The notes under the pieces: model-generated
The model's database searches: none
What the model saw: the letters and a program-made list of their open reading frames with translations, nothing else
What the model was told of the DNA's origin: nothing
Origin: Lingula anatina
Lineage: Eukaryota > Animalia > Brachiopoda
Reading direction: 5' to 3'
Length of the DNA: 64,000 bases
Assembly (NCBI GenBank): GCA_051362555.1
Contig: CM120645.1
Coordinates: 14,632,001-14,696,000, forward strand
Shown here: one piece after another, positions 39-47,499 of the stretch
Layout: each line of letters starts with the position of its first letter
How positions within the stretch are numbered: position 1 is the stretch's first letter
Program-made: the position numbers and the translations under genes

Positions 39-3000
39 CTAACTCATTTCCAGATATTTCATCTGATATACTGCCACTTGTTCGTACTCGCCCATGGCTC
101 GCAGTACACTACATATATTGTTGCAAAAGGTGACAATATTAGGGTGTTTGGGACCTAGCGACTTTTCCGTCAATTCCAGACATTTTTTATAATAGGCAAG
201 GGCCTCTTTGTATTCACCCAACTTTTCCAGAGCACAACCAATATTGTTGTAAGTATAGGCAGTATGAGGGTGTGTGGGACCAAGCAATTCTTCATTTACT
301 TCAAGGCATTTTTTGTAATAAGCAAGTGCCTCTTTGTACTCACTCATGTTTTTCAGTACACTACCAACATTGTTGTATATGACAGCAGTATCAGGGTGTA
401 TAGGACTGAACAGGCCTTCTGCCACTTCCAGGGCTTTTTTAAAATAGTTGAATGCCTCTTTGAACTCCCCCATGGTTTTTAATATGCTACCAATATTGTT
501 GTATGAAGCAACGGTACTAGGGTGTTTGGGACCTAGCACTTCTTCCTTAACCTTCTGACAAATTTTGCAATAGGAAAGTGCTTCTTTGTACTCACCCATA
601 GCTTGTAGTACACAACCGATATTATTGTATGAGGTAGCAGTATCAGGGTGTTTGGGACCTAGAATCTGTTCTCTTATCTCCATGCATTTTTTGTAATAGT
701 CAAGTGCCTCTTTGTACTTACCCATAGCTTTCAATGTACTACCAAAAGTGTTGTATGAGGAAGCAGTATCTAGGTGTTTTGTACTTAGAAGCTTTTCTCT
801 TACATCTAGGCCTTTTCTACAATATGTAAGTGCCTCATGGTACTCACCCATGGCTTGTAGTACACAACCGATATTATTGTATGAGGTAGCTGTATCGAGG
901 TTATTAGGACCTAGAAGGTCTTCCCTTACATCCAGGCATTTTTTGTGATAGACAAGTGACTGTTTGAAATCACCCATTGCTTGCAGCACAACACCTATAT
1001 AATTATATGAGGCAGCGGTATCAGTGTGTTTAGTACCAAGAGACTCTTCTCTCACACCCAAGCATTTTTTGTAAAAGAAAAGAGCCTCTTTATACTCTCC
1101 CATGGCCTTAAGTACAAGGCCAATATTGTTGTATGAGGAAAGAGTATCAGGGTGTTTGGGACCTACAAATTCTCGTACACTCAGGCATTTTTTGTGATAG
1201 ACAAGTGCCTCTTTGCACTCACCCAAGGTTTGAAGTACACAGGCAATAATATCATATGACGTAGCAATATCAGGATGTTTTGGCCCTAGCACCACTTCCC
1301 TTACTTCCAGGCATTTTTTGTGATAGACAAGTGCCTGTTTGAAATCACCCATTGCTTGCAGTACAACACCTACATAATTATATGAGGCAGCAGTATCAGT
1401 GTGTTTGGTGCCCAAAACCTCTTCTCTCACACCTAAGCATTTGTTGTAAAAGGAAAGAGCCTCTTCATACTCACCCGTGTCCTGTAGTACCCTGCCCATA
1501 TTGTTGTATGAGGAAGCAGTGTCAGAGTGTTTGGGACCTAAAAGTTCTTCCCGCACACTCAGGCATTTTCTGTGATAGGCAAGTGACTCTTTGTACTCAC
1601 CTATGGCTTGTAGTACAACACCAATATTGTTGTATAAAATAGCAGTATCAAGATGTTTGGGACCTGACAGCTCTTCCCTCACATCCAGTAATTTTTTGAG
1701 ATAGGCAAGTGCCTCTCTGTACTCACCCATTTCTTGTAGTATGAGACCAATATTTTTGTAGGAAGAGACAGTATCAGGGTGTTTGGGACCTAGAAGCTCT
1801 TCTCTTACCGCAACAGATTTTTTGTGGTAAGCAAGTGCCTCTTTGGACTCTCCCATGCGTTGAAGCACGAATCCCGTATTACTGTATGAAGAAGCAGTAT
1901 CAGGGTGTTTGGGGCTTAGAAGCTGTTCTCTTACAGCAACAGATTTTTTGTGGTAAGCAAGTGCCTCTTTGTACTCACCCATGACTTGCAGTACAACACC
2001 AATAGCGTTGTATGAAGAAGCAGTATCAGGGTGTTTGGGGCCTAGAATCTCTTCTCTTACAGCAACAGATTTTTTGTGGTAAGCAAGTGCCTCTTCGTAC
2101 TCACCCATGTATTGCAGCACGAATCCAACATTACTGTATGAAGAAGCAGTATCAGGGTGTTTGGGGCCTAGAAGCTCTTCTCTTACAGTAACAGATTTTT
2201 TGTGGTAAGCAAGTGCCTCTTTGTACTCACCCATGGCTTGCAGGACAACACCAATAGCGTTGTATGAAGAAGCAGTGTCAGGGTGTTTGGGGCCTAGAAG
2301 CTCTTCTCTTACAGCAACAGATTTTTTGTGGTAAGCAAGTGCCTCTTTATATTCACCCATGGCTTGCAAAACAACACCAATAACATCGTATGAAGAAGCA
2401 GTATCAGGGTGTTTGGGACCTAGAAGCTGTTCTCTTACAGCAGCAGATTTTTTGTGGTAAGCAAGTGCCTCTTTATACTCACCCATTGCTTTCAAAACAA
2501 CACCAATAACGTCGTATGAAGAAGCAATATCAGGGTGTTTGGGACCTGGAAGCTGTTCTCTTACAGCAACAGATTTTTTGTGATAAGCAAGTGCCTCTTT
2601 GTACTCACCCATGACATGCAGCACGGATCCAATATTGCTGTATGATAAAGCAGTTTCAAGGTGTTTGGGACCTAGCAGTTCTTCCCTGACACTAAGGCAT
2701 AATTTTAGATATTTTAGTGCCTCTTTGTACTTACCTGTGTATTGCAGTGCAGAACCTACATTGTTGTATGAGGTGGCAGTATCGAGGTGTTTGGCACCCA
2801 GCTGTTCTTCTCTGATGTTAACACATGTCTTGAGATATTTTACTGCCTCTTTGTACTCACCCATGTCTTGAAGTACGGATCCTATATAGTGGTACGAGGA
2901 AGCAGAAACAGGGTGTTTAGGACCAAGAAGTTCTTCTTTTACTGCCAGGCATTTTTTGTGATAAACTAGTGCTTCTTTGTATTCACCCATAGCTTGTAAC

Positions 3001-6000
3001 ACAACACCAATACTGATGTATAATAAGGCAGTTTCACGGTGTTTGGGGCCTAGAAGTTCTTCCCGCACACTCAGGCATTTTTTGTGATAGACAAGTGCCT
3101 CTTTGTACTCACCCATGGCTTGTAGTACAACACCAATATTGCTATATGAGGAAGCAGTTCTCGGGTGCTTGGGACCTAAGAGCGCTTCTCTGACATCTAG
3201 GCTTTTCTTAAAATAGACGAGTGCATTTTCGTACTCACCCATGTGTTGCAGTACACTTCCAATATTGTTGTATGAGGCATCAGTGTCAAGGTGTTTGGGA
3301 CCTAGAAGCTCTTCCCTCACATCCAGTGATTTTTTGTAAAAGGCAAATCCCTCTTTGTACTTTCCCATATCTTGCAATGTACTACCAATATCATTGTATG
3401 AGGCAGCAGTATCAGGGTGTTTGGGACCTAAAAGCTCTTCTCTCACATTCAGTGATTTCTTGTGAAAGGAATATGCCTCTATGTACTTACCCATGCGTTG
3501 CAATAAACTACCAATATTGTTGTATAATGTGGCAGTATCAAGATGTATGGGACCTAGCAGCTCTTCCCTCACATCCTGGCAAATTTTGAAATAGGCAAAA
3601 GCAGCTTTGTACTCACCCATCTTCTGCAGTATACTACCAATATTGTTGTATGAGGCAGCAGTATCAAGATTTTTGGGGCCAAAAAGCGCTTCTCTCACAT
3701 CCAGTGATTTTTTGTGAAAGGCAAATGCCTCTTTGTACTTACCCATGTGTTCCAATACACTACCAATATTGTTGTATGAAGCAGCAGTATCAGGATGTTT
3801 GGGACCTAACCGATCTTCCATCACATCCTGACACATTTTGTAATAAGCTAATGCCTCTTCATACTCACCCATGGCTTGAAGTACAAAACCTATATTGTTG
3901 TACGAGGAAGCAGTATCAATGTGTTTGGGACCTAGAAGCTCCTTCCTTACATCTAGAGTTTTTTTGAAATAAATAAGCGCCTCATTGTACTCACCCATAA
4001 TTTCGAGTATGGAACCAACGTTACTGTATGAAGTAGCAGAGTCTGGATGTTTGGGACCCAGCAGCTCTTCCCTAACACTTAGGCATATTTTCAGATATGT
4101 GAGTGCTTCATTGTAATCCCCAATTGATTTTAGTATAAAGCCAACATTATTGTATGAGGTTGCAGTATCAGGATGTTTGGTTCCCAGCAGATCTTTCCTC
4201 AATTCCAGTGATTTTTTGTAATAACCAAGTGCCTCTTTGTACTCACCCATGTATTGCAGTACAGCACCAATATTGTTGAAAGAGGTGGCGGTATCAGGAT
4301 GTTTAAAACCTAGCATTTCTTTTCTGATATTGAGGCAAACTTTGTGGTATGCTAGTGCTTCTTTGTACTCACCTATGTCTTGAAGTACAAAACCTACATT
4401 GTTGTATGCGGTAGCAGTAGTGGGGTGTTTGGGACCTAGCTGTTCTTCCCATGTTTCCTGGCATATTTTGAGATATTCAAGTGCTTTTTTGTACTCACCC
4501 ATGCCTTGCAGTAACAAACCAATGTTGTTGTGCAAAGAAGTAGTATCAGGGTGTTTGGGACCTAATAGCTCCTTCCTCACATCTAGGGATTTTTTGTAAT
4601 ATGCAAGTGCCTCTTTGTACTCACCCATAGTTTTTAGTACAAAGCCAACATTATTGTACGAGGTACCAGTATCAGGATGTTTTGAACCCAGTTGCTCTTC
4701 CCTCACATCCAGGGCTTTTTTGTGATAGGCAAGTGCCTCTTTATACTCACCCATACATTGCAGTACAGCACCAATATTGTTGTATGAGGCAGCAGTATCA
4801 GGATGTTTGGGACCTAACAGCTCTTCCCAGATTTTCAGGGATTTTTTTAAATATGTTAGTGCTTCTTTGTACTCACCCATGTCCTGAAGTACAAAACCTA
4901 TATTGTTGTATGAGGAAGCAGTTTCAGGGTGTTTGGGACCTAAAAGTTCTTCAAGCACATTCAGGCATTTTTTATGACAGATAAGTGCCTCATTGTACTC
5001 ACCCAAGGCTCGTAGCACATCACCTATGTTGTTGTATGAGGAAGCAGTTACAGAGTGTCTCGGCCCTAGAAGTTCTTCCCTCACATTCAGTGCTTTTTTG
5101 TGATAGGCAAGTGCCTCTTTGTACTCACCCATGCACTTCAGTACACAACCAATATTGTTGTATAAGGTAGCGGTATCAAGATGTTTGGGATCTAACGGCT
5201 CTTCTGTCACATCCTGACAGATTTTGTAACAGGCGAGTGCTTCTTTGTACTCACCCATGTCTTGCAGTACTAAACCTAAACTGTTGTATGAGGAAACGGT
5301 GTCAGGGTGTTTGGAACCTAGAAGCTTTTCTCTCACATTGCAGCTTTTTCTGTGATAAGAAAGTGCCTTTTTGTACTCACCCATTTTTTGCAGCACATAA
5401 CCTAATTTGTTGTTTACCTTTTCTACGTCAAGCTGATTGTACTCAGAATAATTTTGCATTCCATCTACTACTGTCTGATAAATTGATAAAGCTTTCTGAT
5501 TAAGAAAAAGATTATGGAACACCTCTGCGATGAGTTGCAAATTAATGAATGCCTCTTTTCTCTGTTGTATCTCAAATGAGCACATATTTGATTTGAGCAA
5601 ACTGGCGGTCTTATCTAGATGGGGTGACATGTTCGCCAAACATTCTAATTCAGCAGGACTGCTTTGGTAAACATTGTATAACTGTTTGAGACGACCCATG
5701 AAATAATCACAGTATCTCTCTTGTGTATGAGAGATTTCATTGCTTGTATTTGCATGAGATTCTGCATAGTCTCTTAGCAAAGGATGTAGATCATAGGTAT
5801 TTTCACTGGAGTTCAAGAGGGATTTAATGGTAAGACTGTCAAGGACAGATTCACATTCATCTTCATCTATTTCCAAAATTTCAGAAACCTCAATTGAAGT
5901 AAATGCAACGGGGAAAATATGCAATCCTCTTAACACCTTTTGCTGTGAGGGTTCCAGTGTTTCATAAGACATATCTAGGCAGGTAACCATATCTTGGGAC

Positions 6001-7930
6001 GCTGGAATGTTAGGTAACTGAAGAGTGCTGAGGACCTTTTTATGTTTCATTTTCCCTGAAACTTTTTCTATAGTTTGGACTTTAATCTGGGCAGCAAGCA
6101 GTCTCAATGCAAGGGGGTTATGGCCACAACTGTCTGCTATTTCAGCTAAAACATCTGACTCACTATCTGAAGGGTTGGTTTTTCCCCAAAGAACTTTTAG
6201 TGAAGATATTTTATCGAGCGGAGGAATGTCTATAGTAACTGTCCTGTGTGTTAGAATACTAAAGGATTCACGACTGGTGCATAACAGTGTGATATACTTT
6301 GATGAATCCATTAGATCTTGCAGCAACTGCAGAAAGTCTTGCTTTTGTGAGTGCAAAATACTGTCATTATTGTCAAAGATAAAGAGAGTGTCTGTATTCA
6401 AACTAGACATAGTTTGTATGAATTTGTTTTGATAATCTTTGTACATATCATTTAAAGTAATCGCTGGCTGGTAGTGATGTACAAGTGACAATTTGACAGA
6501 TTCAAGATTTACAACTTTTCTCATGTCAAAGTACAAGACATCTTTTCTGTGGTGTCCAACCTCAATAGCTGTACTTGTTTTACCTATACCACCCATCCCT
6601 GTCAGCAAAATGAGTTGGGTGTCATCTGAAACATGCCCCAGTATTTTCTGCACCAAATCTTCGCGTCCCTTCAACTGTAGATTTCTACTTGGAAGATTCG
6701 GACAAATGAGGTCACAAGGTGCTTCTGAAATAAAATTGGAATGTAATAGTATTGTAATGTGAAAAAAAAACATAAACTCACTTTTATGACGTAAAATGTT
6801 ACTCACTTTTATGACGTAAAATGTTACTTGAAGGATGGATTTCACACTAATGCATACACACACAAGTTCGTGATTATTATTATTTACCTAATCAACAATG
6901 AATTTTTTCAACAAGATAGCAAAACAAGAACATACTTTTTACACTGACTAGATATGACATTGCCTGTTGTGTAAAAATGGTGGCAAAATGACTAGAAAAA
7001 TATTAAAAGAACTCCAGCTCTCTCTCACAGGCTTTATAATAATAAATTATGGAAGTTTTAGCTCATATATTGCACAACAGTCAAAATCGATGGTCTTTTT
7101 TTCGCAATTGTAATAAATCCTTCAGAAAATTGATGGGTCCAAAGGATGGTAAATGTAATCATCACTGCCATTATTTAAAGACTTTGAGGAAAGCCTTTTT
7201 CCGACGAATCATAAAATTTGCATTATAAACTACCAATAGTATTTTTAGTGACAAACAAATAGACATGAACATATAACATGTTCACTTATTTGTCTCATTA
7301 ATATTATATTTAATGCCACTAGCATTGTGAGCACAGCTTTTTATGTGCATAATAGTACGCCCTACCTGCTGCACGTAATTGATCAGTCAGCAACTTGTCG
7401 TAGTCGTCACTGGTGTAGAGTGGAGACAGAGACAACAAAAGAGATTTTAATTCAGCAAACTTGGTCTGGAATGTTGTATCTGAGAGACCGGCACCCCCAT
7501 GTGCGAATTCGTTGCGGAATTTCTTCACTCTGCCTATCTGGGCTTCCACGGACGTGTCAGTTACTGGTGGATTCTCCCAGTTGGCTTTCGGGTTCAGTGT
7601 TGTGATGTTTCTCAACAAGACAACAGTAAGAGTTAAATCTAAGTCCTTTAATGTCACAGTTGTGGAGGGATTCCCAGAGGGGTACAGAAGCTTCATTTGA
7701 CTGGAATTCAAAACATTTCGTTTTTTCAATTGCAGCAAAGTATGGTTTGCTCTTTGGTCGCCAAGTACATCAAACAGCTTGCCGCCATTTGTAGGATCAA
7801 ATATGCCAGTATAAGTTGTTTGTAACTGTGTACTGAGAATATCTTGAAGCACATCGTTAGACCGATGTATCAGTAGCCTCATTCGAATTTCATTTTCTCT
7901 CTCGTTTCGTGGTGTTGCAGCAGCTGCCAT
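39..7930 (-). CDS. HEPN(DZIP3-like)-NB-ARC-TPR STAND/NLR-like protein, ~2416 aa; coding exons 7930-7366 and 6724-39
   Basis: Exon 1 encodes DLDLTLTVVLLRNI...W..PP..D.S..A.I.R.K.FRNEFAH (HEPN R-X4-H). Donor G|GTAGGG at 7365 and acceptor TTTCAG| at 6725 are both phase 1, giving an in-frame join (...QLRAA-E-APCDL...). Exon 2 has Walker A GMGGIGKT (~6576-6599), Walker B LFIFDN, TSR sensor, GHNPLAL and LHPLLR motifs, then TPRs. The ORF-track start at 6863 is intronic. Confidence 0.9.
45..5420 (-). repeat. Coding tandem array of ~43 x 126-bp (42-aa) TPR repeats
   Basis: Counted 43 recurrences of the [M/L/I]G[E/K/D]Y-K-EAL-like motif with consensus LGPKHPDTASSYNNIG; 126-bp periodicity is visible in the DNA. 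Confidence 0.95.
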
Positions 7931-7978: not shown

Positions 7979-8177
7979 CCACACGAAAATGTAGAAGTAT
8001 CGAAGTAGCATAAGAGCATTAATGCAGCAGTGGTGTGGAGCATGTATGTAGTAGAGATGCAGTATTACTGCACTTCTATGGCCAATAATCGCATAAGTTT
8101 TTGCAGAGGAGAGCTTTAATGCAGTAGATAGCAGCATGATAGGTGCATGTTTCAAATATGGTAATTAGCTTCCAAAT
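7979..8177 (+). mobile_element. Truncated, diverged copy of the CCCGCACGAAAA MITE family (see 45569-45852)
   Basis: Aligns by eye to the left two-thirds of the 45569 element. Confidence 0.75.
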
Positions 8178-10559: not shown

Positions 10560-10724
10560 CTATGCCTAATTTCTGCTAAGATTTTGTGAAACATTGTTGC
10601 AGTAGAATGCTACATATGGGGAGTGTGTACTTCATACCTTAAATCGGAGCAGATTTGAAGTATGGTTTCAGTGTGGGTGCAGTAGTTCTACTGCGGTGGA
10701 GTATCTACTATGTTTTCGTGCGGG
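10560..10724 (+). mobile_element. Diverged right part of the same MITE family
   Basis: Ends in GAGTATCTACTATGTTTTCGTGCGGG, matching the 45852 terminus. Confidence 0.65.
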
Positions 10725-10980: not shown

Positions 10981-13900
10981 AAACTTTTTTATATAAATGA
11001 AATATTTAGCATCCAAACAAAGAAAGGAATGACTTTGAAGTATAAACAGAAAGATGTCTAATTTATTTTCCTTACTTGCTGAATTTTATTACTGGATTTT
11101 TTTTAGTTCTAAAACATCATAAACTAATAATAGATACTTACCTAAGAAATGTGTACAACTTGTTGTTATCAGATAGCAGTGATCCACTTCTGAAGATAAA
11201 GGTCAGCCAATACGTCAATCAATCGCACGTAGGTCTTGGTGCTACCACCTCTGTAGACATACATTAAGCCTCGGTCACAACCGGACGCACGAATGTCAGG
11301 ATCGTACGTCCCCTGCAATTTTTGGGTGTTGCAGGGGGCGTGGAGGTCGTAGAGATAGAGGAAAGTCTGCCTTGCGAGTTGCAAAGGCCACATGAGATGT
11401 CCTTTCAAGCAGGGACGCTAATTCCAAGGAGCGATGGCCGTGGAAATTTTATTCATATTTTGAGTTTGTCTTGCTTCCTGTGATCGTGGCACACACTCAC
11501 CACTTAAGAAGGGAATGCAACGCTCGGCGAAAGTAGTGCCCTTTGCGTCAGTTTTGCTTCAAAATTGCCTCACACGTTTGTGGTGACGTACTGACGGCAT
11601 GCGTCAGTTTTGCTTTCTGTTCTCCTCTTCTCGTGCTTACAAGCTGTCTGCGAACTCGAAATTGCGTAAGAAGGACTTGCGTGGACGTGAGATTCTGCGT
11701 AAAATTTGGACGCAAACAGCCCGTAAGACTGAGAGCCCGTACGGTCGGTTAAGGCCGAGGCTTTAACTTAGTCATTGTTTGTAAATTGAAACATTGTGTC
11801 ACGGTATCCTTATCCTTAATAAGACGTTATCTTTATCCACTATGGTAATTTGCAAAACAGTTCGACCGGTGCAATCAATCTGACCATATTTTATTTCTAA
11901 AATAATTTTCTCTGGGCTCAAACATTTAGAAAAAAATGTCGAAATCGTCCAAGAGATTTCTAGCTGTTCCGATTGTTTAACCATATCGGCGGCAGGACTC
12001 GGTAAATTTTCAATCCAGTATATAGATGGGGCATGCCTCAGCCCTTTGTCAGTTGTTGCGTTTTAATGGATCTCGTAAATGAGAATAACAATTAAACCCA
12101 CGATCTTATCTGAAAGCGAGACGTACCGTATTGGACATGTTTATATTTATTCCGTGTACCAGTTGAAGCTTTACACGCTAAATTAGTGTTTAAACTTCAA
12201 TAGACGAGTGTGATAATTACAGGGTAGCTAAACGATTGTAAGAGGAATATGGAGACTGGCCTAATCCCCAAACGGTGTTGAACACGAATGTTGATTAAAC
12301 GGAAATGCCTAAATACATGATAATGAATAGATACATCATAATAATCTTTAGTTCATTTTTCACGAAGAATATCTAAATAAGTGAAGGAAAGCGACGATTC
12401 AGCAAGTACCAGTACTTTGCAGACTACGCCATAATTCGCTGTTTAAAACACCGACTTTTTAAATCTAAATTTAGGGATCCTTTCTTGTTAACAACCACAC
12501 TAAACTACAGTATTTTTTCTTATTATTATATAAAAAATCTCAACTCTTTAGTGGTTGATTTGAGGACTGCACTGTCATATTATACGCCTTTACAATCTAG
12601 ATTACTAATTTTTATCTAATTAATTACTGTAAACCATCAACTATGGTGCATGTTCGTTTTATGTTTCAGTCCTAAAAATAAACTATAAAAGATACACATG
12701 GAGCAGCCTTATTAGTCCCATAAGAATGTCGCGCATTGAATGCTAATTTGGAACATAAACCATTTTCTCCTTAACGGTGACTCACTGGGACTTGAATTAC
12801 TGCCAATTGTATTGTCAAGGCCTTAGAAAGGCAGCCAGGTAAATAAAGGCTTAAAATAACCCTTAAATACAAGTCTCATGAAAAAGGAGTGGACTGAATG
12901 TTTTTCGCTTGGCTGGGCGTGTTATCGGCAGGTTTTGTCTAAAAAAGCCCCCTCAGACAATGAGGCGATTCTCCGCATTTGCTTTTTATAAACTAAACTG
13001 CTGTAGCTTATAATACATACAAAAGGGTTTAGAATACGATGCAATTAACTAGAGCAAACGTATGGAGAGTTTTATATGCTTACATGTAGCCTATAAAGAA
13101 TTGGTTTTAACAAAACATTTGGGTCAAACTCATAATCGCTTTACAGTATATTCTAGATTCGGAGTCGTGTGTATATAAACGAAGAGGATGTCTGTTTGAC
13201 TTGTCAGTTGAATATTTAAAAGTTATCCAATGTTTCTTGTCTGAGAGTAGTTTCTTTGATAAAGAACCAAGAAAGAAAGAGAAAAGAAGGGAAGTAGCCG
13301 TGGGAATTAGACTGGGTTCCCTTCCCTAGATCGAGCTAACAGGGTTGATCCATAGCCACGGGGTCAATTGCTTTCAGCCTAAGCATCTTAGACGTTGGGA
13401 CGCCCACTTAAGCTGCTAAACGATAGTTATTTACTCCCTATCAGCCTCAGCAGGCGTGACAGACATCTAAGCCGCCCAAGTTAATTGCAATTAAGCGCGA
13501 ATCCTCTAGTTCGATCCAAAGTTAGTAGGATATTGTCTGGGAATGGTCTCTTATAGTCATTAATGATTAGCATCATCAGTCATTTAGTGGAGACCACCGC
13601 CGTGTATACCACACGTTCGATCATAGTGTAAATGTAACATAACATATTCCTTGTGCTAAGAACTAATTAATATACTTTTTTACTTTTAAATTGCTTTTTT
13701 GAACGTCATGAGTGAATTTCACCCCTTAAAATGATTCCTTACTAGAATATAAGAAATCAAACAAGTGATTCTGAAGCACAACTCTTGTAATAGTTTTGAG
13801 ATGGTTCGTTGCAGCTTTTCTTTTAATTTGTTCCTTATGTTAATGATGTAGATCGTTCTTAACTTCAAACCTTAAACATCATGAAATTACCTTTTACAAT

Positions 13901-16803: not shown

Positions 16804-18091
16804 TTACGTGATAGTGACCAATCATAAAGGAGCATAACAGCTCACAGATAATATACATGTAAGCCATGTCGACCAGAAACCACAATGGCAAATATAGGAT
16901 AACTGTTTACTACAATATAATACAAGCAAATGGATAGTGACCAATTGCAAACGAGCAAAAACAGCTATATATATACATAAAATTAACCGATAATAAGTTA
17001 CATAGCGTCCATAAAAGCCAAACAGCATAAAAAAGTAACAACCCGGACAACGGGTCTGGTGAAAAGAATAAAATTATTATAAGTATGTGAACTACACGTA
17101 TAAAAATACAGTTAAACATCATCGATGATTTATCACATAAATCTTACAGGTAGTTGCAAATCACATCTGCAACTGAATGAAGAAAATAACCACTTACATA
17201 ATATGAGCTACAATCAAGGTCAACAAAGTGTATATAAAACAACACCAGAAGGCAAATAACAGTGTTAACAGGTTTATGTACACGTGAAGTAGCAAGTTTA
17301 TGAATTGAAACAAGTGACACAAAGGATATAATTGCAATTATAAATGAATTTAATTGCTACTTAACAGAAGCACACAGGATGAACAATTCTTCATCAGATC
17401 CACGGCTGCATTTAAGAGTTAGTGAATCGACAAAACATATAATTCAACTTGCTAACATAATGAAAAACAAATGGAAATGTGTGATACTGGCCTGATCTAG
17501 ATGCCATCCCAGCCTTGCTATTGAAAAATCTGCACAAACATTGCTTCAAACGCTTGTGCTGATCAGGGCCCCGTATTTTGAAAGCATTGCGTATTGCGAA
17601 TTGCTCAAATAGAGGCTACAATGTATTATATGGGACGAGTATGGACGAGTTATGGAATCGAGACACTTGCGCACGTGCGCAACATAGCGAAGCTTTTGAG
17701 ATACCGGGCCCAGGAGGCATGATGGAGAACAAAAGGTTGCACAGAAAATTCAAACATCAGTAGCGGGCACGGCAAAACAGGCTTCGTTGAGGAATGTGGT
17801 AAATCCTCCAAAGGAATGAAATTTGATGAGTGATGTCCATATGATCTTGCAGCCACCAAGTAGACAGACGATAAAATTTTAAATTATAAATTAAGTGATC
17901 ATCAAGTGAAGCTGATAAAACAGTTTAAGTGGACTCTAACTTAACCGCAGCTAATAACCAACTGGCTTTTACCACTGCTAGTATTTCAATGTCTTAGTCC
18001 ACTATGATAATTACCAGATGTGCGAGCCTATATAATATAATATTAATATTATATTATGAATGAAGAAAATAACCACTTATGCAATGAAAAC

Positions 18092-18365
18092 GAAAACGAA
18101 GTAGATACTCCAGCGCAGTAGACTACTGTAATCATACTGCAAACATGCTTCAAATCTGCTTCGATTGGGGATCTAATTAGCGTATTTGAAACATGCTTCT
18201 ATCATGCTGCTAATATACTGCATTAATGCTCCTCCTCTGTACAACCCTATGTAATTTTTGAAGTAGAATTGCAGTAGGCTATACTGCATTTCTACTGCAA
18301 ATATGCTCCACACCACTACTGCGTTAATGCTTCTTTGCTACTTCGATACTACTGCATTTTCGTGT
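18092..18365 (-). mobile_element. Inverted, near-full-length copy of the CCCGCACGAAAA MITE
   Basis: Reverse complement closely matches 45572-45845; termini are eroded. Confidence 0.85.
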
Positions 18366-19745
18366 CTATAGACACAGCCCCGGTCACCTGTTACACAATG
18401 GCATGTTATGAACAATGTTCCTGAAAGAGTGCTTGAAATTTCTTGTTTGTGAATTTTGTCCCAGCATCTGTTTGAAGTATTGCTGGTTTTCTATCATCAG
18501 CTGTAATCGTTTTAAACGCCTGTAATACACTGTCAGCATTTTTTTTTATGTTGATAGCAACAACCCAGTAAAATTTTGAAAAAAAATCAATAAATGTTTA
18601 AAAAACATGTCCTTGTAGTTTTTTGATATTGGATTTTGATATTGTGCTGAGATCAGCCCCTGCCATTGTTGATATTTCCGTCCGAAGTCGCGTTTCGTTT
18701 CCTTACGAGTGCAAATAATGTAAATGTATATTGGTTTGCCAAAAACTCTCTGATTTATTACGGGTAATTTTTTATGTTATGATATAAATTCTTAAGGTTC
18801 TTGTCTGTCTGACCCTAAGTTTTATTGTTATGTTTTGTTTGTTTGTCTTATCTTCATCCTTACCGTTTCAATCGTTTTCAAACCAAACGCATTTTCTTCC
18901 ATAAAGCTCTTTAAAAGAGTCTGCATGCCGTTTGACCAGTTGTCAGTGGGATTCTGTCTACTTTACCCTCTACAAGGCCCACATATTTATTTTCACTAGA
19001 TATTCACAGATACGTCTTTGACTAATTCATGGCACATTCTCGTTTGTGAAAAGTGCATATAATTAATATGCGGCTTTGGTAGAGGGTAATACCCCTTAGT
19101 GCACATGGGTGGTAACATTTTAGTCACAAATTTCATGATGACAGTAATGATATTGATCTAAATGTTTCAATCAATTACAATTATAGCAGATATCATTTAT
19201 CAAGATTTTGTACCGAGACATTTCTAGATTCCGATTGGAGAATGCCGGTGGTGGAGATACACAATTGTCTGTGTAGAGCAATGCAGGATAAGCGACTTTC
19301 TTAGATATCAGCGTCTAAGTTGAATTCCAGTAACTGTCACTGCGTGATAACCGTTCGGTTTGCGTTCTTACTAATTACGCAGAGCAAGCTTTTACAGTGT
19401 TTTGATTAATAATATGCCAATAAGCGGATTCTCCCCTTGAGCGACGAATATAATCGAAGTCTGTATCTGTATCGCCACCCATCAAGTAAACCCAACTTAA
19501 CGACTTACTTGAACTATTGAACTGATATACAGGAGAACTCCGACAATTTTCTGTTCTGAACTTAGCATTGTCCGGTTAATAACAAGAAAGATTTGGCATA
19601 AGAATGCTTTGCATTTTAATCCGGTTTATTACCCTGTATAACACATCACTTATATTGTATCGGCCAAAATCTGTATATAAAGAGATCGCTGCAAGGCGCG
19701 ATTTAGTACGATATACCTCCGTGGCTTTCACTGACCAAACTCAGA

Positions 19746-20952
19746 ATGTTGAGTGCGTCTGAATTTGAGATCTACGTCGCGCATTTGGAACAGGCGCTTT
19801 TACCGCCGTCTCGAGAGAGCCTTCTTTCGCTCTCTGTTATCGCTGTTATAATGAACAGCGTATCTTTGGCAGTCTTGGGGCGCTTGACTAGGCCCCTTAC
19901 TACTTTTCAAGTCAATTTGGTGAATTTGGCAGTGTCAGACTTAATGTTCGCCACGTGCATGGCGGCAACAACAAGCGTCAATATCTATATTCAGACGAAG
20001 ATTCCGCATTTCCAAAATCATAGAGTCAGTTGACGGCGCTCCTGTCCTTGACGAAACGACCAACGTCACCGAGAACCCTACCAGTAAGGCACTTGGTGAA
20101 GATGCGACCCCCCTTGATTCCGACGAGAATACCCTAGTTGGTTTGATAAACTTAGCTTGCTTTGAGCGGTTTACCACTTCTCTGATGTGTTATTTCACTC
20201 TGTTGCCTGTGATGGCCACTACTTCTCTCGTCTACCACCAGCTCACCGTCGTATGGTATCCTTTGGATTTGACCATAAAGAACAACAAGAAACCAACGGT
20301 GCTTTTCGTGATCTTGTCCTACCTCATCCCGCTGGTATCCTACTCCTTGGGAATCATCTTCGAGGTTGTTAAGGAACCCAAAGATGGTTGTTTACCAACG
20401 CTGATGTCTCAGCCAGTATATTTAGCCGTCAGTGGAACTGTTAGCATAACAACTGTCATAGCGTTCCTTGGGAACACGGTTATGCTAGCCTTACTCCTCT
20501 ACAAAGCTCGGAAACAGATGACACAAGGCCCATCGAAGATCATGGCTGAAAAGGCATTCAAGACCAGTGTAACTATCGCGATGTTGTGGGCAACCGTCTT
20601 CATCCTCTGGAGCACCGGCGTCGTAGCTTTTACCATGGTTTTCTCTTTCGACCTGATCCGTTCGCCCATCCATGAGAATTTCAACATTGTTCATATCGTT
20701 GCTATGAACTTGTTTATGCTGAACCCGGTTCTGGACCCTATCATATATGGCCTGCGTATTCCATCAGTCAGAGAAGCATACACCCGTATGCTGTGCTGTA
20801 ATAACCCACTAAGAGGTAACAACATCGAAGCGCCCATCGCTATAGCTACATTGGATAAGAGGTCAGTAGAATCTCAAGGCACCCGAAAACCGTGTGATTC
20901 TTTTGAAGTCGAGAATAATCAGTTGTTTTTGCTTAGGAGAAACACTGTATGA
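19746..20952 (+). pseudogene. Intronless rhodopsin-like (class A) orphan GPCR with one frameshift after TM2 (pseudogene or sequence error)
   Basis: Frame A has TM1 (IMNS) and TM2 (NLAVSDL). Frame B is open from 19945 and encodes ECL1, the TM3 Cys, TM4-TM6 and TM7 NPVLDPIIYGLR. TATATAAA lies at 19674-19681. The frameshift falls between ~19960 and ~20030. Confidence 0.8.
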
Positions 20953-23966: not shown

Positions 23967-26014
23967 CAAGTGTCCTACAACATATTTAGGGTTCGAAAAT
24001 GGGCCCAATAGGAACAGTTCTAAAATACAGGGTGATTCTTTAAATATGTTGCTATCATTATTGACATTGACCAATGTGTTTTCTAACAGGCATCAGTTTG
24101 ATACCTTGGTATCAAGATGAGTCAAAGTCACATTTTCATAATTTCAACAGGTTTGGTGGCTGATTATTAAAATTCATGGTTATGACTTATCCAAATGCTA
24201 TGTGATGAAGTGCCCAAAATGAGAAAAGCTCAACTGAACGTTTCTTGTTCGTGCAGCTTTGACCACTTAATTGTCTTTTAGCTTGCTTGACGTGGGATGT
24301 GAGCATTACTGGCCGGGATCAAGCCCAGCAGATTGCCATGATTTCTGTGCCTCAGAAAGAGTATAAAATGATTGAGAGCACTTTTTTTCACAAAAGGACC
24401 AACTATATTTATTGTGAATAATAATTAAAAAAACAAGCATTTAACTGGACTGTTTCAAATATAATATCTTTGAAATAATTACACATTTGAATGTGACTTG
24501 ACTTTTATCTGACGCAATTTAAAACGTGATAAAACAGAGTGGTTAAACATAAACGTAAGCATCACGGAGGGCCTGAAGGGGTAGCCCCGCCCCTTTATTT
24601 CAACCCCGTCAGTCAAAAGCGCTGGAGGCAAGGGGGGGGGGGTGACCTGTCCTGCTAATATTTTCTGAAAAGTTTATTACCCACTTCATGATTAAATTCG
24701 CCTGCCTACGACACATGTATATCTTTAAAACTTTAAAAAGAAGAATAAACACAAATGATTTATTTTCACATATGCATACTCAGCTGTCAGTATTATAATT
24801 CTACTCTCTAATAATTAAAGTACAAATGCCAATACAATTCGATTTTCAACTTCTTGAAAAAGAAATACAGAGAAAAAGAGATAGTAGGAGAACATTTATT
24901 CCATATTTTAATGTCGTTGTTGACACAACAAAACAGATTACAGTTATTTTTTTATAACCAATATATTATTTTATTATTATCCAAAGATTCAGAAAGTTCC
25001 CCTACTGCAATACAATGAGCCACCGTTACACAATCACATAGGAAGATTTGTATAAAACAATAAAATAATGCACAAACATTTCACATAATAATGACCACAT
25101 TCTAAAAAATTCATTGTATTTGAAACTTTATTTTTCATAACATGAAACAAATCGGACCTCTCTTTACGTATGCTTTTCAGTGTCAAGGAAAGACCGAAGT
25201 CCAACTTCAAGTAATTTGAAATGACCACTAAAAAAAAAAAAAAAAAAAAAGCTAATAGCAACATATTAAAAGCCAACAAGGGTGTAACTTTTATTTCACA
25301 AAGCAGGCAAAATACCCACCTCTCATCGTTAATATTTAGACACTCTATGGATAAAGCAATATCTTATAACAACTATATTAAATTGACCACTTGGGTTGGG
25401 ATTATTTGATTTTTGAAACCCAGCAACATTATGGCCCTCATGGGATAAATGCTAAGTTTACAAAATTGCGAAATTTTACAAGAACAACAACTGCTTAATA
25501 GTACAAGGCCATCAAGCGCTTTAAAGAGACATTATAAGCTATAACATTAACAAGAAATGCATACTTAAGTAACACAAACAAGTTTAAAGCCTACATCTTC
25601 CAGCACATGGTATATATATTTTCAACAGATACCATTAATTCAGACATAATTGTAAATTACTTTACACACATTAATTTGTATTCAAGAGATTACAGCCAAA
25701 GTAGCATTGACAAGTGCCCGAAATTGCGAAATTTTACAAGAACAACAGCTGCTTTAAGGAGGCATTGTAAGTACCAGTAATATCATTTACAGATTTTGGT
25801 AACATGACTACGTATAAAACCAACCCCTTCTAGCACATGCTATATATTTTTATCCAGATGACATTAATGTAACATCCCGTTAATTGTATTCAGTAATCGT
25901 ATTCCTCAAAGTTCTCGGTTGTAGTAAGCTGTCAATATGTAAATTGGCCGAAACCCGCCCCTCTCACAACAATTAAGGCATGGATGTTAAACAGTATGGA
26001 TTCCATCTGAGACG

Positions 26015-28459
26015 TTAATCATGACAACCTGAAAAAGGCAAATCGATATTTTGAGCCCTTAGGTTTTATGTGAATCTTGCAGCACACCATGGTATAAGAC
26101 TAAATGAATTGCAATACATATACATACTTCAGAAACACAAGCATACAGGAATGGTATATAAATAAAAAAGGAAACGTTATTCATATGTTTTGTTTTAAAT
26201 GCAAAACCCCGGTCGGAGTGTCCACCCTTAAGTTCTGGTAGCGTCTCGAATTTTTAACTGCTAACCTAAAAGCATTTACATATAGATATAAATTGGCATG
26301 GAAGTATGAGAACATTATTAAACTGGAATTTTAGAACTCTTCAAGATGTGCGCACGATGGCTTTATGGGGAAATGGACATACGAATTTAAAGTGAAAATA
26401 TACTTGGGGTTTTGTTACTGCTTACGAAGTTGCTGCAGGAGCCTGAGAAACTCCACGTCTAAATTCCAATGCCTCATTCTAAATGTGTCCAAAACACCAC
26501 TTACCGCTCGGTATCATGTACAGTTGGTTGGCCCATGGCCCACCTTCTCCGTCTGATTGACAATTGGTAGAAGGCCCGTATTTCATATATGTTTCCTCGG
26601 CGGTACAAGAGGAGCCACACCATCCACTTTTCTGCACGACAAAATACTTGTATCCGCGACTCTTTGCAGCTTGGTAGCATTTGTCGATTGGGTACACTCT
26701 TGTCTCGTAAGGACCGTCGAGGATGGGATCCTGACCTTCTAACGTGGGAACTGCCCTGTCTGCCTTGTCAGCCCAGCAACCCAATTTTATATAACCTGTA
26801 AAGATACAAGCTGCGCTCGGAAAATTGCCTCAATTGTCATGGCAGTCGAGCACCCCAATTTCATATAATCTGTAAGAATTCAAGTTTTGCTTAGAATGCG
26901 TTAACATCATTGGAAAACTCGGGTTCACGTGCGTGATTACTTTCCCCGTTAACAATTCTTAGGTTATGCTGTCAACCATGGTGACTGGCTTATACTGCCC
27001 TATGTATTTACAATTATGGAATGTGAAAACTCCATTCATCGTGTGTTTATCTCGGGTCAATTTCGTAACAATGTGATACCTGCACGAACAAGATTTTTTG
27101 AGGAGATTTCTGCCCTTTCTAAGTCACACTAAGGTATGTCCTACCCCAAACTGCAGATAAAATTTCTCACTCAGTAGGCAAATTATGCTGTTTCAACGTT
27201 GAAACAATGTTGAACTTCAACGTTGACAACGTTGTCCAACCCGTTTTCAACGTTGGTCCATTGGCCATTGATCTATGTCACTATGTCTGCTGGGTTAATT
27301 TATTGATATAAATAAAAACGTTTTTGGGTTCACTCTATTGATTTCTAATTATGACCATCACGAATTAAATCCTATCTTTTTGAACAGGTTCTGAACAACA
27401 GGTCATCAGATGACACTTTCGGTAACAGTTTTGGAAATGGAAACTTAATTGCCAGGACTGGTAGATTTTTACGTAAATGAGAAAAAGAGAAACAGAACTG
27501 AAAGTACGTGATATTATACCCCCAGGAATACATCATAATAATTATGATGTATTCCTGGGGGTATACTTTTTAGCATTTCGGGACGTTTGGTTACTGGAAG
27601 GGAAAATCATTAAATTGTCCGAAATATTTAATTGTCTGCTACTTGTCCATTTCCAGAATACGTTAACTTGACCCTTTCTGATGGTTCTGTTTCCCAAATT
27701 TGGAAAGAGATCAAAGTTGATTTTTGCTAAGATACCTGGTTTCTTTTAAACAGTTGAAACTGTTACTGTCAATTCCCAATTTCCTATGATAAATGTGCAG
27801 AGCCACCGCCACTTACTGCTTGTTATCATATACAGTTGGTTGGCCCAAGGTCCACCTTCTCCGTCAGATTGGCAATTAGTTGAAGGTCCGTGTTTCATAT
27901 ATGTTTCCTCGGCGTTACAAGAAGAGCCACACCATCCACCATTCTGTACGACGAAGTATTTGTACCCGCGACTCTTTGCAGCTAGGAAGCATTTCTTGAT
28001 TGGGTTCACTCTTGTCTCGTACTGTCCGTCAAGGAGGGGATCCTGGCCTTCTAAAGTGGGAACTGCCCTGTCTGCCGTGTCAGCCCAGCAACCCAATTTT
28101 ATATGATCTGTAAAAATACAATCTGCGCTCAGAACACGTCTAAAACAATTCGGACCACGGTTACACTCCCTGTTTAAAATATTTGTGTTAAGCTGTCTAG
28201 GGCGTAGGCAGATTTATGAAAATGACGTTTTACAGTGCAGACCCCCACCGTACCTATCTGGGTACTGGTAGCTGGAGAAAAAACGTCATCTTAACAGTGT
28301 CTCGTTTCAAATACATATCAGAAGGGAATACAATGTAAATAGGTACAATTGAACTTTTTTTCCTTTTTAGCATTCAGGTTGTTGCTTACTGCAACATGAA
28401 TCCGCTACGGCGACCATCATGGCTATGGTCAGAATAAAACCAACAGAGTAACTCGGCAT
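26015..28459 (-). CDS. Secreted protein with two WSC-like domains, paralogue A, 221 aa; exons 28459-28390, 28107-27817, 26795-26505, 26028-26015
   Basis: Signal peptide MPSYSVGFILTIAMMVAVADS. Two 291-bp phase-1/1 exons encode LGCWAD...KC...VQNGGWCGSS...YG.S..C...G.GG.WAN.LY. Canonical GT-AG junctions are all in frame, ending GCHD*. Probable 5'UTR exon donor at 30948. Confidence 0.85.
27168..27295. mobile_element. Small palindromic (CAACGTTG-rich) MITE remnant in an intron of WSC gene A
   Basis: Repeated CAACGTTG and a ...TGCTGGG terminus; absent from the matching intron of paralogue B (~33170). Confidence 0.6.
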
Positions 28460-30843
28460 GGTGTACTGCAAACTGGCAAAAGACTTGATGTGGTCCAAAG
28501 TGTTCCTGCAAAATAGAGAAAAAATATGACGATCACAGAGGACTACCTACTAGTATATATACACAAACTGGCACATATACTGTATTACCCATACAAAAAT
28601 TAGACTCTGTGATACTCTAAAGGACAGCCAATCGGACTCAATCAATATGAATGCTATCAGACCTTTATGGGGGTCCTTTGGGGAAAATGTCCTATAGTTA
28701 ATTCTATATGGGGCACCGTAGTGCTGTTAAAAAGCTATAGTCTGGATAGAAAAATATTCCTTTGGACATATCTATGAGAAGGCTACAACGAACATTCTAC
28801 AAGACTCATTTTAGAAATCCTATCTGTATGGCTTTTGGTTTTTTCATTAGGAATAAAGCACACATGTAACTTAATGTAAATTTTATGGATGGTTATAAGA
28901 ACATGGCAGCAGAACTGCCAAATGTACAGACAAAAACAGGTAATGATGCACAAAATAGATTCTTTTGTCAGTTGTGATGCAAGTAATGCCTTACAGCAAA
29001 GTCAACATCAAATTGAAATTTGTATAGTTTTAATGATGTATCATAGATAAAATGGATATCCAGCTAATATAGGGTTCATGGACACGGGTACTGAAAACGC
29101 AATTTCGTGAGAATTTTGATTTAACAAATATGCCTTATTTCTTTGAAAAAAAAATCAAATTAAGTTAGCTCTCCAACAATAGCTGTATTTTAGACTTAAA
29201 ACAATTCTTGTAAGTTTTAGTACCACAGTTTCATATATACTGTTATTACGTCATCGCACATTTTTTCAATATTTATATAATATTGCATAATGCTTGACTG
29301 CACAAACACCAACAGTATTTAACTTTTTTTTTACGTGTAGCAGAAATCATAGGATCTTGCATGTTTGTGCACACTGATATTTCTTTTATGTACCTAATAC
29401 TACAATGTAACTTTTCCATGGGTAACGTAGGTATCGTTGATTTTTTCAGACCTAATCTTATGTGAAAACATGTTTTGGAACCACGCTTGATACACACGGT
29501 ATATACTTTTTATCCGGATGCATAGTTTGATAAAAACTAAATGCTATGTATTTGTATGTAATTTTGATTATTGTTGTGCTTTATTTTTAAGGGCCTAATC
29601 TTTAACTTCGAGTAAGGTATACGTATCTTTTATTTGGTGCCACATGTTGTTAGAAGATGAACTGAGCAAACTGTTGCAGTTGTATGTTTTTAAAATTATG
29701 ACGCAGACCTCTATAAATATAAGCATGCTGCAACCACAACATGAACGTTATGGCAATGGTATAAACTAAATTGGTGTCAGTAATGTATGTATCGTTTTGG
29801 GACATAAGATAATAATTTCTACTGCATATTGCCAGAAGAACTAAATAACGTGCACATGCATAACCATATGGATACTGGATATTTTTATCACTCAATTACA
29901 TACTTTTTTGATGAATCAAGTTAATAAAATTTTAATCAGCACTCAAAAATAACAATGTATGTATTGATTTTGGAAGATTAGATTATAATTGCTGCCCAAA
30001 GAACTAAATAACGGCCATATAACCATATGTGATGTGCACACAATCATTTTACCGGATAAAAATTTTGGCCATGGATACGAATTTTAATTTGTATATAACT
30101 TTTTTTGGAAAAGAATGAATATCATTTTACTTCTAAACACTGCCTTTGGAACAGTCCGTACAAGAAACCCTGTGGAATACCCTTTTGAAAGTTCGCAAAG
30201 GAACTAAATAACTTGTTTCGGCATAAGGCATGGAATGTAATCAAACAAATATTACACCTTTTTAATCTTGTTCAGCGGCTTGATAACTGAGTTCAACCAT
30301 TCTGATTAGAACCAATTTTTTTTTACAAATTATTACAAATTTTTCAAATTACAAATTTTACACATTTTTACAGAGTATTTTCTGATGTTCATATATAGGT
30401 ATGGGACAATAAAAAAAACTTGCAAAAGTGAGAATAATCTTTGGGGACATTTTAATTTGACGAAGAAATGCGACGCTAATGATGAGCCCGTGATTCTAAA
30501 GTAATGGCGCAATGGCAATACCAGGTTTAATGCAGGTTCTTCTGGCAACAATATTGATGATGATAAGATGAGTTCGGGCATCAGTGGGACGGATTAGACC
30601 CGTGGACTTGTCAGGAGGGGCACTTTCAGCCACAGCTTTCCTCTGGAGTAGTTTAAATTAGTTCGACTTGAAACGCCAAACCATCTGGCAAAGTCGGTTT
30701 TCTCGTACGTAAGTATTGCAAAAAAAAAAAACAAAAAAAACAAAAAAAAAAAAAAAAACACATAAACCGTGATGTACTGGAGAGTGCAGAATCAGATAAT
30801 CCTCAGTAATTTTTGCAAAGGTGAAGCAAAAAAAAAAAATACA

Positions 30844-30898
<55 letters not shown>

Positions 30899-30918
30899 AA
30901 CAAACAAACAAACAAAAA
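30844..30918. repeat. (AAAT)n/(AAAC)n microsatellite
   Basis: Directly visible. Confidence 0.95.
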
Positions 30919-40054: not shown

Positions 40055-40250
40055 AAGGAAGCCTGGTCATTTTGGCCCTGTTGCACACCATAAGCTGTCG
40101 CTCTCACCTCCTAGGGGAGGATTCAGCCCGGCTGCCGTATTAGGCGCTCAGAGCTAGCAAACGTACCATTTCTACACTGCCAGACCAGACACCTGCTTCA
40201 GCCCCTTCGTGCTGGCGGATGCCAAGCTAGGAGACAGCAGGTACCGTTTA
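40055..40250 (-). mobile_element. Probable SINE fragment (also 55300-55495 and partially 41718-41780)
   Basis: GC-richer block resembling the reverse strand of invertebrate tRNA-SINE bodies; recognised by resemblance only. Confidence 0.4.
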
Positions 40251-40702
40251 AATACATAGCATCAATATCATGAAAATGAAAATACGAAGACTACAATGTT
40301 ATTCACATTCATTTCATTTATTTCCATAGGCGGAGCTTTTATGCTTCTCACACGACATGCCCCCCCTCTCTCATCGCAATTAGAAGGGGTAAAACATTAA
40401 GTTTGAATAAGTCTTGGTCGTGTTTAGTTAATTGAACCTGATGTACTAAGCAAAGTTTTTTCATAGCAGCATAAAAATAACTAAAAGATAAATGTTGCCA
40501 ATGAATGTAAAAATATGAGAACTTGTCTGCATAAGGGAGATATGATCTCAACGCCGTGATTAAAAACGGCCTCACATTTCGCATAGCCTGACATCGTGTC
40601 TACGTGAAACCAGTTTCCATCGACCTCACTTGTTTGTATTCGACTGGTGACATTGATGTGTTTTTAGTTTTTTATGTAAACAATGGTGGACCGTTTCATG
40701 GC

Positions 40703-40749
<47 letters not shown>

Positions 40750-45325: not shown

Positions 45326-45568
45326 TAGGTTATGAAATCATTTTTATGTCTGGAACTCCTTGCCATGTTTATTGTCTGTTTTCTGGGAAACGTAGAGCTT
45401 AAAATTTCTCAGAATCCAAACAAAGAAACAGTATTGGATTTGCATTAAAAAAATTAGCTACTCTTCTAAAATTCTTGGAAAGTTCTGCCATGAATGATAT
45501 ATAAGAGAGATGAATTAGCTGGATTGTCATCAATATCGCTAGACGATAGAGATACCCAGCTGAAGATA

Positions 45569-47448: not shown

Positions 47449-47499
<51 letters not shown>

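What the first reader, a model, noticed from the sequence alone, without database searches (positions are those of the whole stretch)
39..7930. Animal HEPN-NB-ARC-TPR receptor resembling prokaryotic antiviral STAND (Avs) architecture
Seen: two ORFs listed separately splice in frame into effector (HEPN with intact R-N-E-F-A-H), NB-ARC switch and ~43 TPRs. Known: HEPN R-X4-6-H motifs form RNase active sites on dimerisation (RNase L, Cas13, toxin and anticodon nucleases); STAND ATPases oligomerise on ligand binding; bacterial Avs and fungal NLRs use TPR sensors. Inference: a ligand-gated RNase immune receptor with no death-fold domain. NB-ARC-TPR proteins are reported in some invertebrates, but I know of no functional characterisation of this combination.
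Basis: partly seen in the sequence, partly recalled or inferred. Interest (0 to 1): 0.85.

Follow-up and report, generated by a model that had tools for sequence, protein, structure and literature searches.

The report
Lamp-shell RNase-headed immune receptor
A two-exon gene, most likely from a Lingula lamp shell, encodes a likely immune receptor whose 43-repeat tail is predicted to sense an intruder and switch on a predicted RNA-cutting head; the same design is already catalogued in corals, and no functional test of it turned up in the papers searched.

Summary
Exon 1 (7930-7366) and exon 2 (6724-39) join across a 641-nt GT..AG intron into a stop-free 2416-aa protein: DZIP3-type HEPN with intact RNEFAH, an NB-ARC (AP-ATPase) switch and 43 TPR units of 42 aa. 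No read spans the joint, but 8 Lingula anatina gene models align across it in one piece at 48-67% identity. The architecture is not new: 32 of 53 rows of coral orthogroup OG0000193 are listed as exactly HEPN/NB-ARC/TPR (PMC10236652, file 17), and this scan noted it before in the same genome and three others. It is not an Avs member: its ATPase groups, with moderate support, with other animal NB-ARC proteins, and Avs models fail. Additions here: the repeats vary most at the known TPR ligand-groove positions (p 0.008-0.024; relaxed, not provably positive, selection), there are recent repeat duplications, and related HEPN heads also sit on Roc-COR and CARD-NACHT proteins in Lingula. A ligand-gated RNase is the best reading (about 0.6) and remains untested. 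New member of a known kind.

The parts
7366..7930 (-). Exon 1 coding part (ATG to phase-1 GT donor), 188 codons plus one base; carries the whole HEPN domain
   Evidence: RNA depth of the family falls to zero beyond it in X8 and X9
7376..7780 (-). DZIP3/hRUL138-like HEPN domain, residues 51-185
   Evidence: Pfam PF18738 E 2.7e-32; all-helical model, mean pLDDT 87
7499..7516 (-). HEPN motif R139-N-E-F-A-H144 at the end of helix 128-143
   Evidence: R and H both kept in 18 of 20 aligned rows
6725..7365 (-). 641-nt GT..AG intron, phase 1
   Evidence: same joint in L. anatina models; no spanning read listed
39..6724 (-). Exon 2: ATPase module, helical arm and the whole TPR array in one exon, ending in TAG
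6042..6662 (-). NB-ARC / AP-ATPase nucleotide-binding and helical domains, residues 210-416: Walker A GMGGIGKT 231-238 (6599-6576), Walker B LFIFDNND 302-309, sensor TSR340, CGHNPLAL 388-395
   Evidence: Pfam PF00931; motifs shared by the Lingula paralogues
5739..6041 (-). Winged-helix part of the STAND module with YDLHPLL (H502; the place of the MHD motif, label recalled)
   Evidence: aligned to AfsR 8k60 over residues 228-517, E 2e-10
5439..5738 (-). Helical arm between the switch and the repeats, residues 518-617
   Evidence: helices at pLDDT about 65-94 in the model
42..5438 (-). Array of 43 TPR units of 42 aa (126 nt), residues 618-2416; mean 72% nucleotide and 60% amino-acid identity among units
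1785..2666 (-). Recently multiplied block, units 23-29, nearest partners 88-96% identical in DNA
780..1532 (-). Likely three-unit duplication, units 32-34 and 35-37 (33/36 94%, 32/35 85% DNA identity)
7979..8177 (.). Part of a short interspersed repeat 49 nt upstream of the ATG (not part of the protein)
   Evidence: copies at 18090-18365 and 45570-45850

Best explanation
This is a two-exon animal gene for a HEPN / NB-ARC / 43-TPR protein that likely works as a one-protein immune receptor: the TPR tail is predicted to bind a foreign molecule, the ATPase would then oligomerise, and the paired HEPN heads would cut cellular or viral RNA. Shown: the gene, the three domains, the intact catalytic and nucleotide-binding motifs, a family of paralogues in Lingula, recent repeat duplications and excess variation at ligand-groove positions. 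Inferred from related families: an ADP-bound, self-inhibited resting state; ligand binding in the concave TPR groove; nucleotide exchange and oligomerisation; two R139/H144 motifs forming one composite active site; RNA cleavage (tRNA or rRNA most likely) that stops translation or kills the infected cell without a death-fold adaptor. The ligand is unknown; a viral or microbial protein is the best guess.
For: Domains and motifs. R and H kept in 18 of 20 HEPN rows; HEPN RNases act through juxtaposed R-phi-X3-H motifs (10.64898/2025.12.03.690598, passages). The two best of 48,161 chains for the HEPN model are HEPN RNases, AbiF (Z 7.1, rmsd 5.2, 161 aligned) and Csm6 (Z 6.8, rmsd 4.6, 123 aligned), a middling score. 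At least 11 L. anatina models pair this HEPN with this ATPase, an expansion typical of immune genes. The same ATPase group carries a second HEPN family (CXorf38 type, DUF4559) in 4 of 12 relatives with long N-termini and DZIP3-type in 1, so RNase-fold heads recur. The six TPR positions known to contact ligands (PMC1261162) are more variable than random sets (p 0.008; 0.024 without the structural positions) with omega 0.75 against 0.29 for the frame, as in fungal and brown-algal NB-ARC-TPR receptors. Exon-confined, correctly stranded RNA of the family, with 15 reads at 99% or more identity in run X6.
Against: No read across the 7366/6724 joint was listed and most laid reads are under 90% alike, so they come from paralogues (151 of 185, 114 of 136, 95 of 128; 0 in X2). 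Omega at the groove positions is not above 1 (0.75; pN/pS 1.03 in 8 close pairs), and two outer helix-B positions vary as much (omega 1.48 on two columns), so plain surface tolerance can explain part of the pattern. Foldseek gave no match at E 0.001 for the HEPN model. The closest named ATPase profiles are non-immune regulators (HaaT 68 bits, AfsR 48 bits). Some HEPN families are non-catalytic RNA binders (PMC3710099). No paper found shows RNase activity for any DZIP3-type HEPN.
Confidence: 0.6

Rival explanations
1. It is an immune STAND receptor, but the HEPN head only binds RNA or recruits a partner and does not cut; signalling goes through another protein.
For: Non-catalytic or RNA-binding HEPN domains exist (Swt1; sacsin titles in the listing); the coral paper calls the domain RNA-binding; 2 of 20 aligned relatives have lost R or H.
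Against: R139, N140 and H144 are among the conserved columns across Lingula and more distant rows at 33-80% identity; 194 of 202 oyster DZIP3-type HEPNs keep the motif (PMC9646362).
Confidence: 0.17
2. It senses an endogenous or conspecific signal (self/non-self recognition, stress or development) rather than a pathogen, as AfsR/MalT-type regulators and fungal allorecognition NLRs do, and then cuts or binds RNA.
For: Nearest solved and profiled relatives of the ATPase are AfsR and HaaT; some fungal repeat NLRs act in incompatibility (PMC4986451); selection at the groove is not provably positive.
Against: Lineage-specific expansion, unstable repeat number and head swapping fit host-pathogen conflict better than a fixed endogenous ligand.
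Confidence: 0.14
3. This copy is a silent or decaying member of a birth-and-death family, or its 43-unit array is partly an assembly artefact.
For: Very low own-copy RNA and no junction read; a repeat element lies 49 nt upstream of the ATG; the L. anatina models found are only 724-1285 aa.
Against: No stop or frameshift in 7.2 kb; omega 0.29 on frame positions; no two units are identical (best 96%), unlike a duplicated assembly piece; searches could not return proteins above 2000 and 1223 aa.
Confidence: 0.09

Closest known systems
Coral DZIP3-like HEPN / NB-ARC / TPR proteins, orthogroup OG0000193 (PMC10236652, additional file 17)
   Same: Identical domain order; 32 of 53 rows carry exactly this label, in five coral species; the paper suggests antiviral or apoptotic roles.
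   Different: Brachiopod rather than coral; 43 repeats in one exon. The coral proteins themselves were not fetched, so orthology is not shown; Lingula HEPN heads group with each other, not with the coral-like HEPN-NB-ARC row P0105.
Lingula anatina RefSeq paralogues (LOC106176106, LOC106163909, 'nephrocystin-3-like' and others; P0004-P0010, P0013, P0022, P0023, P0049)
   Same: Same layout and same exon joint; 78-80% identity in HEPN and up to 67% over residues 1-660.
   Different: Annotated as uncharacterized; shorter TPR arrays in the models found; none is identical to this copy.
Bivalve and cnidarian HEPN-NACHT receptors (PMC9646362, PMC8260672)
   Same: DZIP3-type HEPN as N-terminal effector of a STAND ATPase, intact Rx4-6H, expanded, proposed to degrade viral RNA.
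   Different: NACHT rather than NB-ARC; mostly LRR or WD40 sensors.
Fungal and brown-algal NB-ARC-TPR receptors (PMC4986451, PMC3341825)
   Same: 42-aa TPR units, blocks of near-identical repeats, variation on the concave face, enzyme-type heads in fungi.
   Different: Different heads; in Ectocarpus each unit is its own exon, here all 43 lie in one exon; positive selection was shown there, only relaxation here.
Prokaryotic Avs (AVAST) STAND receptors (PMC13581612)
   Same: Enzyme head, STAND switch and TPR-like sensor in one chain: the working analogy.
   Different: No AVAST hit in PADLOC; Avs4 scores 17 bits against a cut-off of 1500; the ATPase groups with animal proteins. Analogy, not membership.
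Human TEP1 TeTIR-NACHT proteins (10.64898/2026.09.21.753143) and RNase L
   Same: Animal precedents for an enzyme effector on a STAND ATPase (TeTIR NADase) and for a ligand-gated HEPN RNase in immunity (RNase L).
   Different: TeTIR is an NADase on NACHT; RNase L uses ankyrin and pseudokinase domains and a nucleotide messenger (recalled), not a STAND switch.

Membership tests
Animal DZIP3-HEPN / NB-ARC / TPR receptors (coral OG0000193 type) | N-terminal DZIP3-like HEPN domain | tested here: met
   PF18738 112 bits, cut-off 27
Animal DZIP3-HEPN / NB-ARC / TPR receptors (coral OG0000193 type) | Central NB-ARC ATPase | tested here: met
   PF00931 33 bits, cut-off 23.5; NACHT 15.6 below its cut-off 26.7
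Animal DZIP3-HEPN / NB-ARC / TPR receptors (coral OG0000193 type) | C-terminal TPR array | tested here: met
   43 units
Animal DZIP3-HEPN / NB-ARC / TPR receptors (coral OG0000193 type) | All three in one chain (spliced transcript) | tested here: inconclusive
   Canonical in-frame splice and 8 database models aligned across the joint; no spanning read in 8 runs
Animal DZIP3-HEPN / NB-ARC / TPR receptors (coral OG0000193 type) | Common descent of the ATPase with cnidarian NB-ARC proteins | tested here: inconclusive
   Groups with Mercenaria, Actinia and Dendronephthya rows: FastTree 0.998 on 182 rows, but only 87/78 in IQ-TREE on 34 chosen rows, with long branches and uneven composition; OG0000193 proteins not fetched
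Active HEPN RNases | R-phi-X3-H motif at the end of a core helix | tested here: met
   RNEFAH 139-144 closing helix 128-143
Active HEPN RNases | HEPN helical fold | tested here: inconclusive
   Pfam HEPN family hit; top structural rows AbiF Z 7.1 and Csm6 Z 6.8 are tied with unrelated helical bundles
Active HEPN RNases | Dimeric composite active site and RNA cleavage | not testable with these tools
   needs biochemistry or a solved structure
Avs / AVAST | Match to an Avs family profile | tested here: not met
   no AVAST model among PADLOC hits; Avs4 17 bits of 1500
Avs / AVAST | Enzyme effector + STAND + TPR-like sensor in one protein | tested here: met
Avs / AVAST | Binds a viral protein and oligomerises to activate the head | not testable with these tools
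   ligand unknown
Canonical animal NLR (death fold - NACHT - LRR) | NACHT, LRR and death-fold domains | tested here: not met
   NACHT below cut-off; no LRR or death-fold family among the Pfam hits shown (best 25 of 37 for exon 2); 0 of 74 upstream frames hit a death fold
Fungal / algal fast-evolving NB-ARC-TPR receptors (works-like comparison) | Highly conserved internal repeats (over 85%) | tested here: met
   only locally: units 23-29, 88-96% DNA identity to nearest partners; array mean 72%
Fungal / algal fast-evolving NB-ARC-TPR receptors (works-like comparison) | Positive selection on concave-face positions | tested here: inconclusive
   excess variation p 0.008-0.024, omega 0.75 against 0.29, not above 1

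The most novel reading that the evidence does not exclude
Lingula runs a death-fold-free antiviral system of its own: one portable, phase-1 HEPN RNase exon is grafted onto three unrelated NTPase switches (NB-ARC-TPR, Roc-COR, CARD-NACHT), and long single-exon TPR arrays like this 43-unit one reshuffle by unequal crossing-over to change what is sensed. The gene would be an animal counterpart of bacterial Avs in which pattern recognition directly triggers RNA cleavage, assembled independently of the coral proteins with the same layout.
Probability: 0.3. Interest if true: 0.75.

Novelty: new member of a known kind. Interest (0 to 1): 0.38.

Why it matters
If the head is an active RNase, marine invertebrates have receptors that go from sensing to RNA destruction in one protein, as bacterial STAND defences do, without caspase or death-domain relays. 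The class is catalogued in corals and molluscs but no functional test was found in the searches made; this copy has every motif intact and a clean exon-sized HEPN domain, so it is a convenient test case. The gene itself does not change what is known.

Tried and rejected
No whole genome is held for this window, so copy number and paralogue context could not be counted. The run finder listed no RNA holder; this is not evidence either way, and the same-label raw-read runs were laid instead. HEPN homodimer prediction gave no answer (score 0.02, mark 0.32, alignment not used); it is neither support nor evidence against. The model of the ATPase part was poor (mean pLDDT 63, under 50 over residues 1-60 and 141-251 of that piece) and was not used for a fold search. 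Foldseek found nothing at E 0.001 for the HEPN model, and the sequence search of solved structures found no HEPN relative. Recent bacterial origin was considered because the word-index search gave only Lingula, then bacterial regulators and one fungus; the full profile search also gave animal rows at similar scores, and both trees place Lingula with them, so it was set aside, with moderate support only. A per-branch test of selection on the repeats could not be made; only pairwise counts and class-wise omega were obtained, and the set 7/14/18 was chosen after seeing the data, so it is not a test. The first repeat alignment was out of register and was redone. An upstream coding exon was sought by tblastn with 7 paralogues and Pfam on 74 frames: none found. 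A 2018 paper on the Lingula immune repertoire is recalled but not held and may already mention this family. A search of earlier scan findings by sequence gave nothing.
Full report
Observation. The window's first 8 kb hold two minus-strand frames. Cutting at 7366 and 6724 removes a 641-nt GT..AG intron and gives 2416 aa without a stop; of 12 neighbouring cut pairs, 3 keep the frame and only this one has canonical ends. Pfam gives HEPN_DZIP3 (E 2.7e-32), NB-ARC (E 4.5e-08, above cut-off) and TPR_10/TPR_12. The array has 43 units of 42 aa. The HEPN motif is R139-N-E-F-A-H144; Walker A, Walker B (hhhhDN type), the sensor arginine, the GxxP turn and the winged-helix histidine are present and shared with the paralogues (motif names recalled).

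Organism and family. The best relatives are Lingula anatina RefSeq models: 12 of 17 hits to exon 1 and the top 12 of 36 hits to the ATPase part. The window is therefore most likely from a Lingula lamp shell (inference). Eight of the 17 align to residues 1-660 in one piece at 48-67% identity and cross the joint at the same place (for example LHAA|EAPC); three more models pair HEPN with this ATPase (P0022, P0023, P0049). These are predicted models, and their transcript support was not seen. The searches could not return proteins above 2000 aa or 1223 aa, so nothing is claimed about this array being the longest.

Expression. Eight of nine listed runs were laid, 6-30% of each. At 90% likeness the exons had depth under 3 in three runs and almost none in the fourth. 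At 85%, X8, X9 and X6 gave 185, 136 and 128 reads and X2 none; most are under 90% alike and so come from paralogues; depth is zero across the intron in X8 and X9; X6 has 15 reads at 99% or more, a strand pattern that fits a minus-strand RNA, and depth up to 2 in the intron next to exon 1. No joint was listed for 7366/6724. In X6, 26 reads leave the window at 7364 into other sequence: a relative whose HEPN exon ends at the same boundary and continues into another exon or its own intron.

HEPN head. The model is confident (pLDDT 87) and all-helical, with the motif closing helix 128-143. The best two of 48,161 chains are HEPN RNases (AbiF Z 7.1, Csm6 Z 6.8), but such scores are common for helical bundles, and Foldseek found no significant match. 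R and H are both kept in 18 of 20 rows. In L. anatina models the same head also occurs on a Roc-COR protein (P0011, 95% identical to the head of the NB-ARC protein P0010), on CARD-NACHT proteins (P0014, P0015) and at a C-terminus (P0012), with the similarity ending at about the exon boundary. All 16 Lingula heads group together (100/100) apart from 6 unnamed coral-like rows, one of which is a HEPN-NB-ARC protein (rows were chosen by similarity to a Lingula query and the tree has no outgroup). This points to exon shuffling of an effector cassette; P0011 could be a chimeric model.

ATPase. The closest solved relative is AfsR (E 2e-10). A full search of 1.84 billion representatives gave 6 proteins at E 1e-30 or better, all Lingula, then a flat tail at 24-34% identity. 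A FastTree of 182 domains splits 104 rows, including Lingula and the three named non-Lingula animals (Mercenaria, Actinia, Dendronephthya), from 78 rows that hold the named bacteria and one fungus (0.998). IQ-TREE on 34 hand-picked rows gives the same split with only 87/78. Most rows are unnamed and composition differs, so this is moderate evidence for an old animal NB-ARC group. Of 12 rows on that side with long N-termini, 4 carry the CXorf38-type HEPN family DUF4559 and 1 HEPN_DZIP3. Avs profiles fail.

TPR array. Units are 72% alike in DNA on average; units 23-29 are 88-96% alike to their nearest partners, and 32-34/35-37 look like a three-unit duplication. Pfam fixes the register (unit position 6 = TPR position 1). 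The positions known to contact ligands, TPR 2, 5, 6, 9, 12 and 13 (PMC1261162, passages), have mean pN 0.39 against 0.22 overall; random six-position sets reach this in 0.8% of cases, 2.4% if structural positions are left out. Omega is 0.75 there and 0.29 on the frame; two helix-B positions give 1.48 on two columns. So the groove is diversified on a conserved frame, as in fungal (PMC4986451, passages) and brown-algal (PMC3341825, passages) receptors, but positive selection is not shown, and exchange among repeats breaks the tree assumption.

Mechanism. Most likely (0.6): self-inhibited monomer, ligand binding by the TPR groove, nucleotide exchange and oligomerisation of the STAND switch, pairing of HEPN heads into a composite R/H site, RNA cleavage, arrest or death of the cell. 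Only the parts are shown; every step is inferred from STAND and HEPN families (10.64898/2025.12.03.690598, passages; PMC13581612, passages; Avs oligomer details recalled). Rivals: non-catalytic head (0.17), endogenous or allorecognition signal (0.14), silent copy or artefact (0.09).

What is known. [quoted passage not shown] PMC9646362 (passages) and PMC8260672 (passages) describe HEPN-NACHT expansions. PMC3710099 (passages) defined the family, noted fusions to TPR and NACHT and bacterial HEPN-STAND-TPR proteins, and proposed RNase L-like roles. PMC8195603 (passages) and 10.1101/2022.07.19.500537 (passages) list HEPN among effectors; 10.64898/2026.09.21.753143 (abstract and passages) shows an enzyme head on animal STAND proteins. 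Six searches (listings only) showed no functional test of a DZIP3-type HEPN receptor; most subscription papers and preprint supplements were not visible, and a recalled 2018 paper on Lingula immunity is not held. Earlier scan notes report the same layout in another piece of this genome and in three other genomes; they are unchecked and were seen after the coral table had been read.

Verdict. Real, intact and as described; a new member of a catalogued but untested kind; works like Avs by analogy, not by membership. Interest 0.38.

Noticed in passing
P0011 (L. anatina LOC106162424), residues 1-200: HEPN head 95% identical to that of the NB-ARC-TPR protein P0010 but fused to Roc-COR: recent exon grafting, or a chimeric gene model.
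   Followed up: partly
P0014, P0015, P0012 (L. anatina): Related HEPN heads on CARD-NACHT proteins and at the C-terminus of another protein; P0015 has lost the catalytic arginine and P0022 the histidine.
   Followed up: partly
P0067, P0075, P0103, P0116: NB-ARC(-TPR) relatives, one from Actinia, whose head is the CXorf38-type HEPN family DUF4559.
   Followed up: no
window 7979-8177 and 10642-10724: Two halves of one short repeat (whole copies at 18090-18365 and 45570-45850) lie 2.5 kb apart, as if split by a later insertion, right upstream of the gene.
   Followed up: no
window 19945-20952 (+): 335-codon frame with a rhodopsin-type seven-transmembrane match (E 4.7e-06, below cut-off).
   Followed up: no
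window 25137-36257: Locally duplicated region with at least three minus-strand frames weakly matching WSC domains (26479-26829, 27746-28213, 32612-32965).
   Followed up: no
window 39162-51072 and 54410-64000: Large tandem duplication with a spacing of about 13-15 kb and 75-96% identity, with an internal satellite-like array near 50088-53875.
   Followed up: no
window 18409-18597 (-): Short integrase-core (rve) fragment of a mobile element.
   Followed up: no
window 11291-11728: Repeat with RNA reads that switch strand between its ends (109 reads in X7), probably an inverted-repeat element transcribed elsewhere.
   Followed up: no
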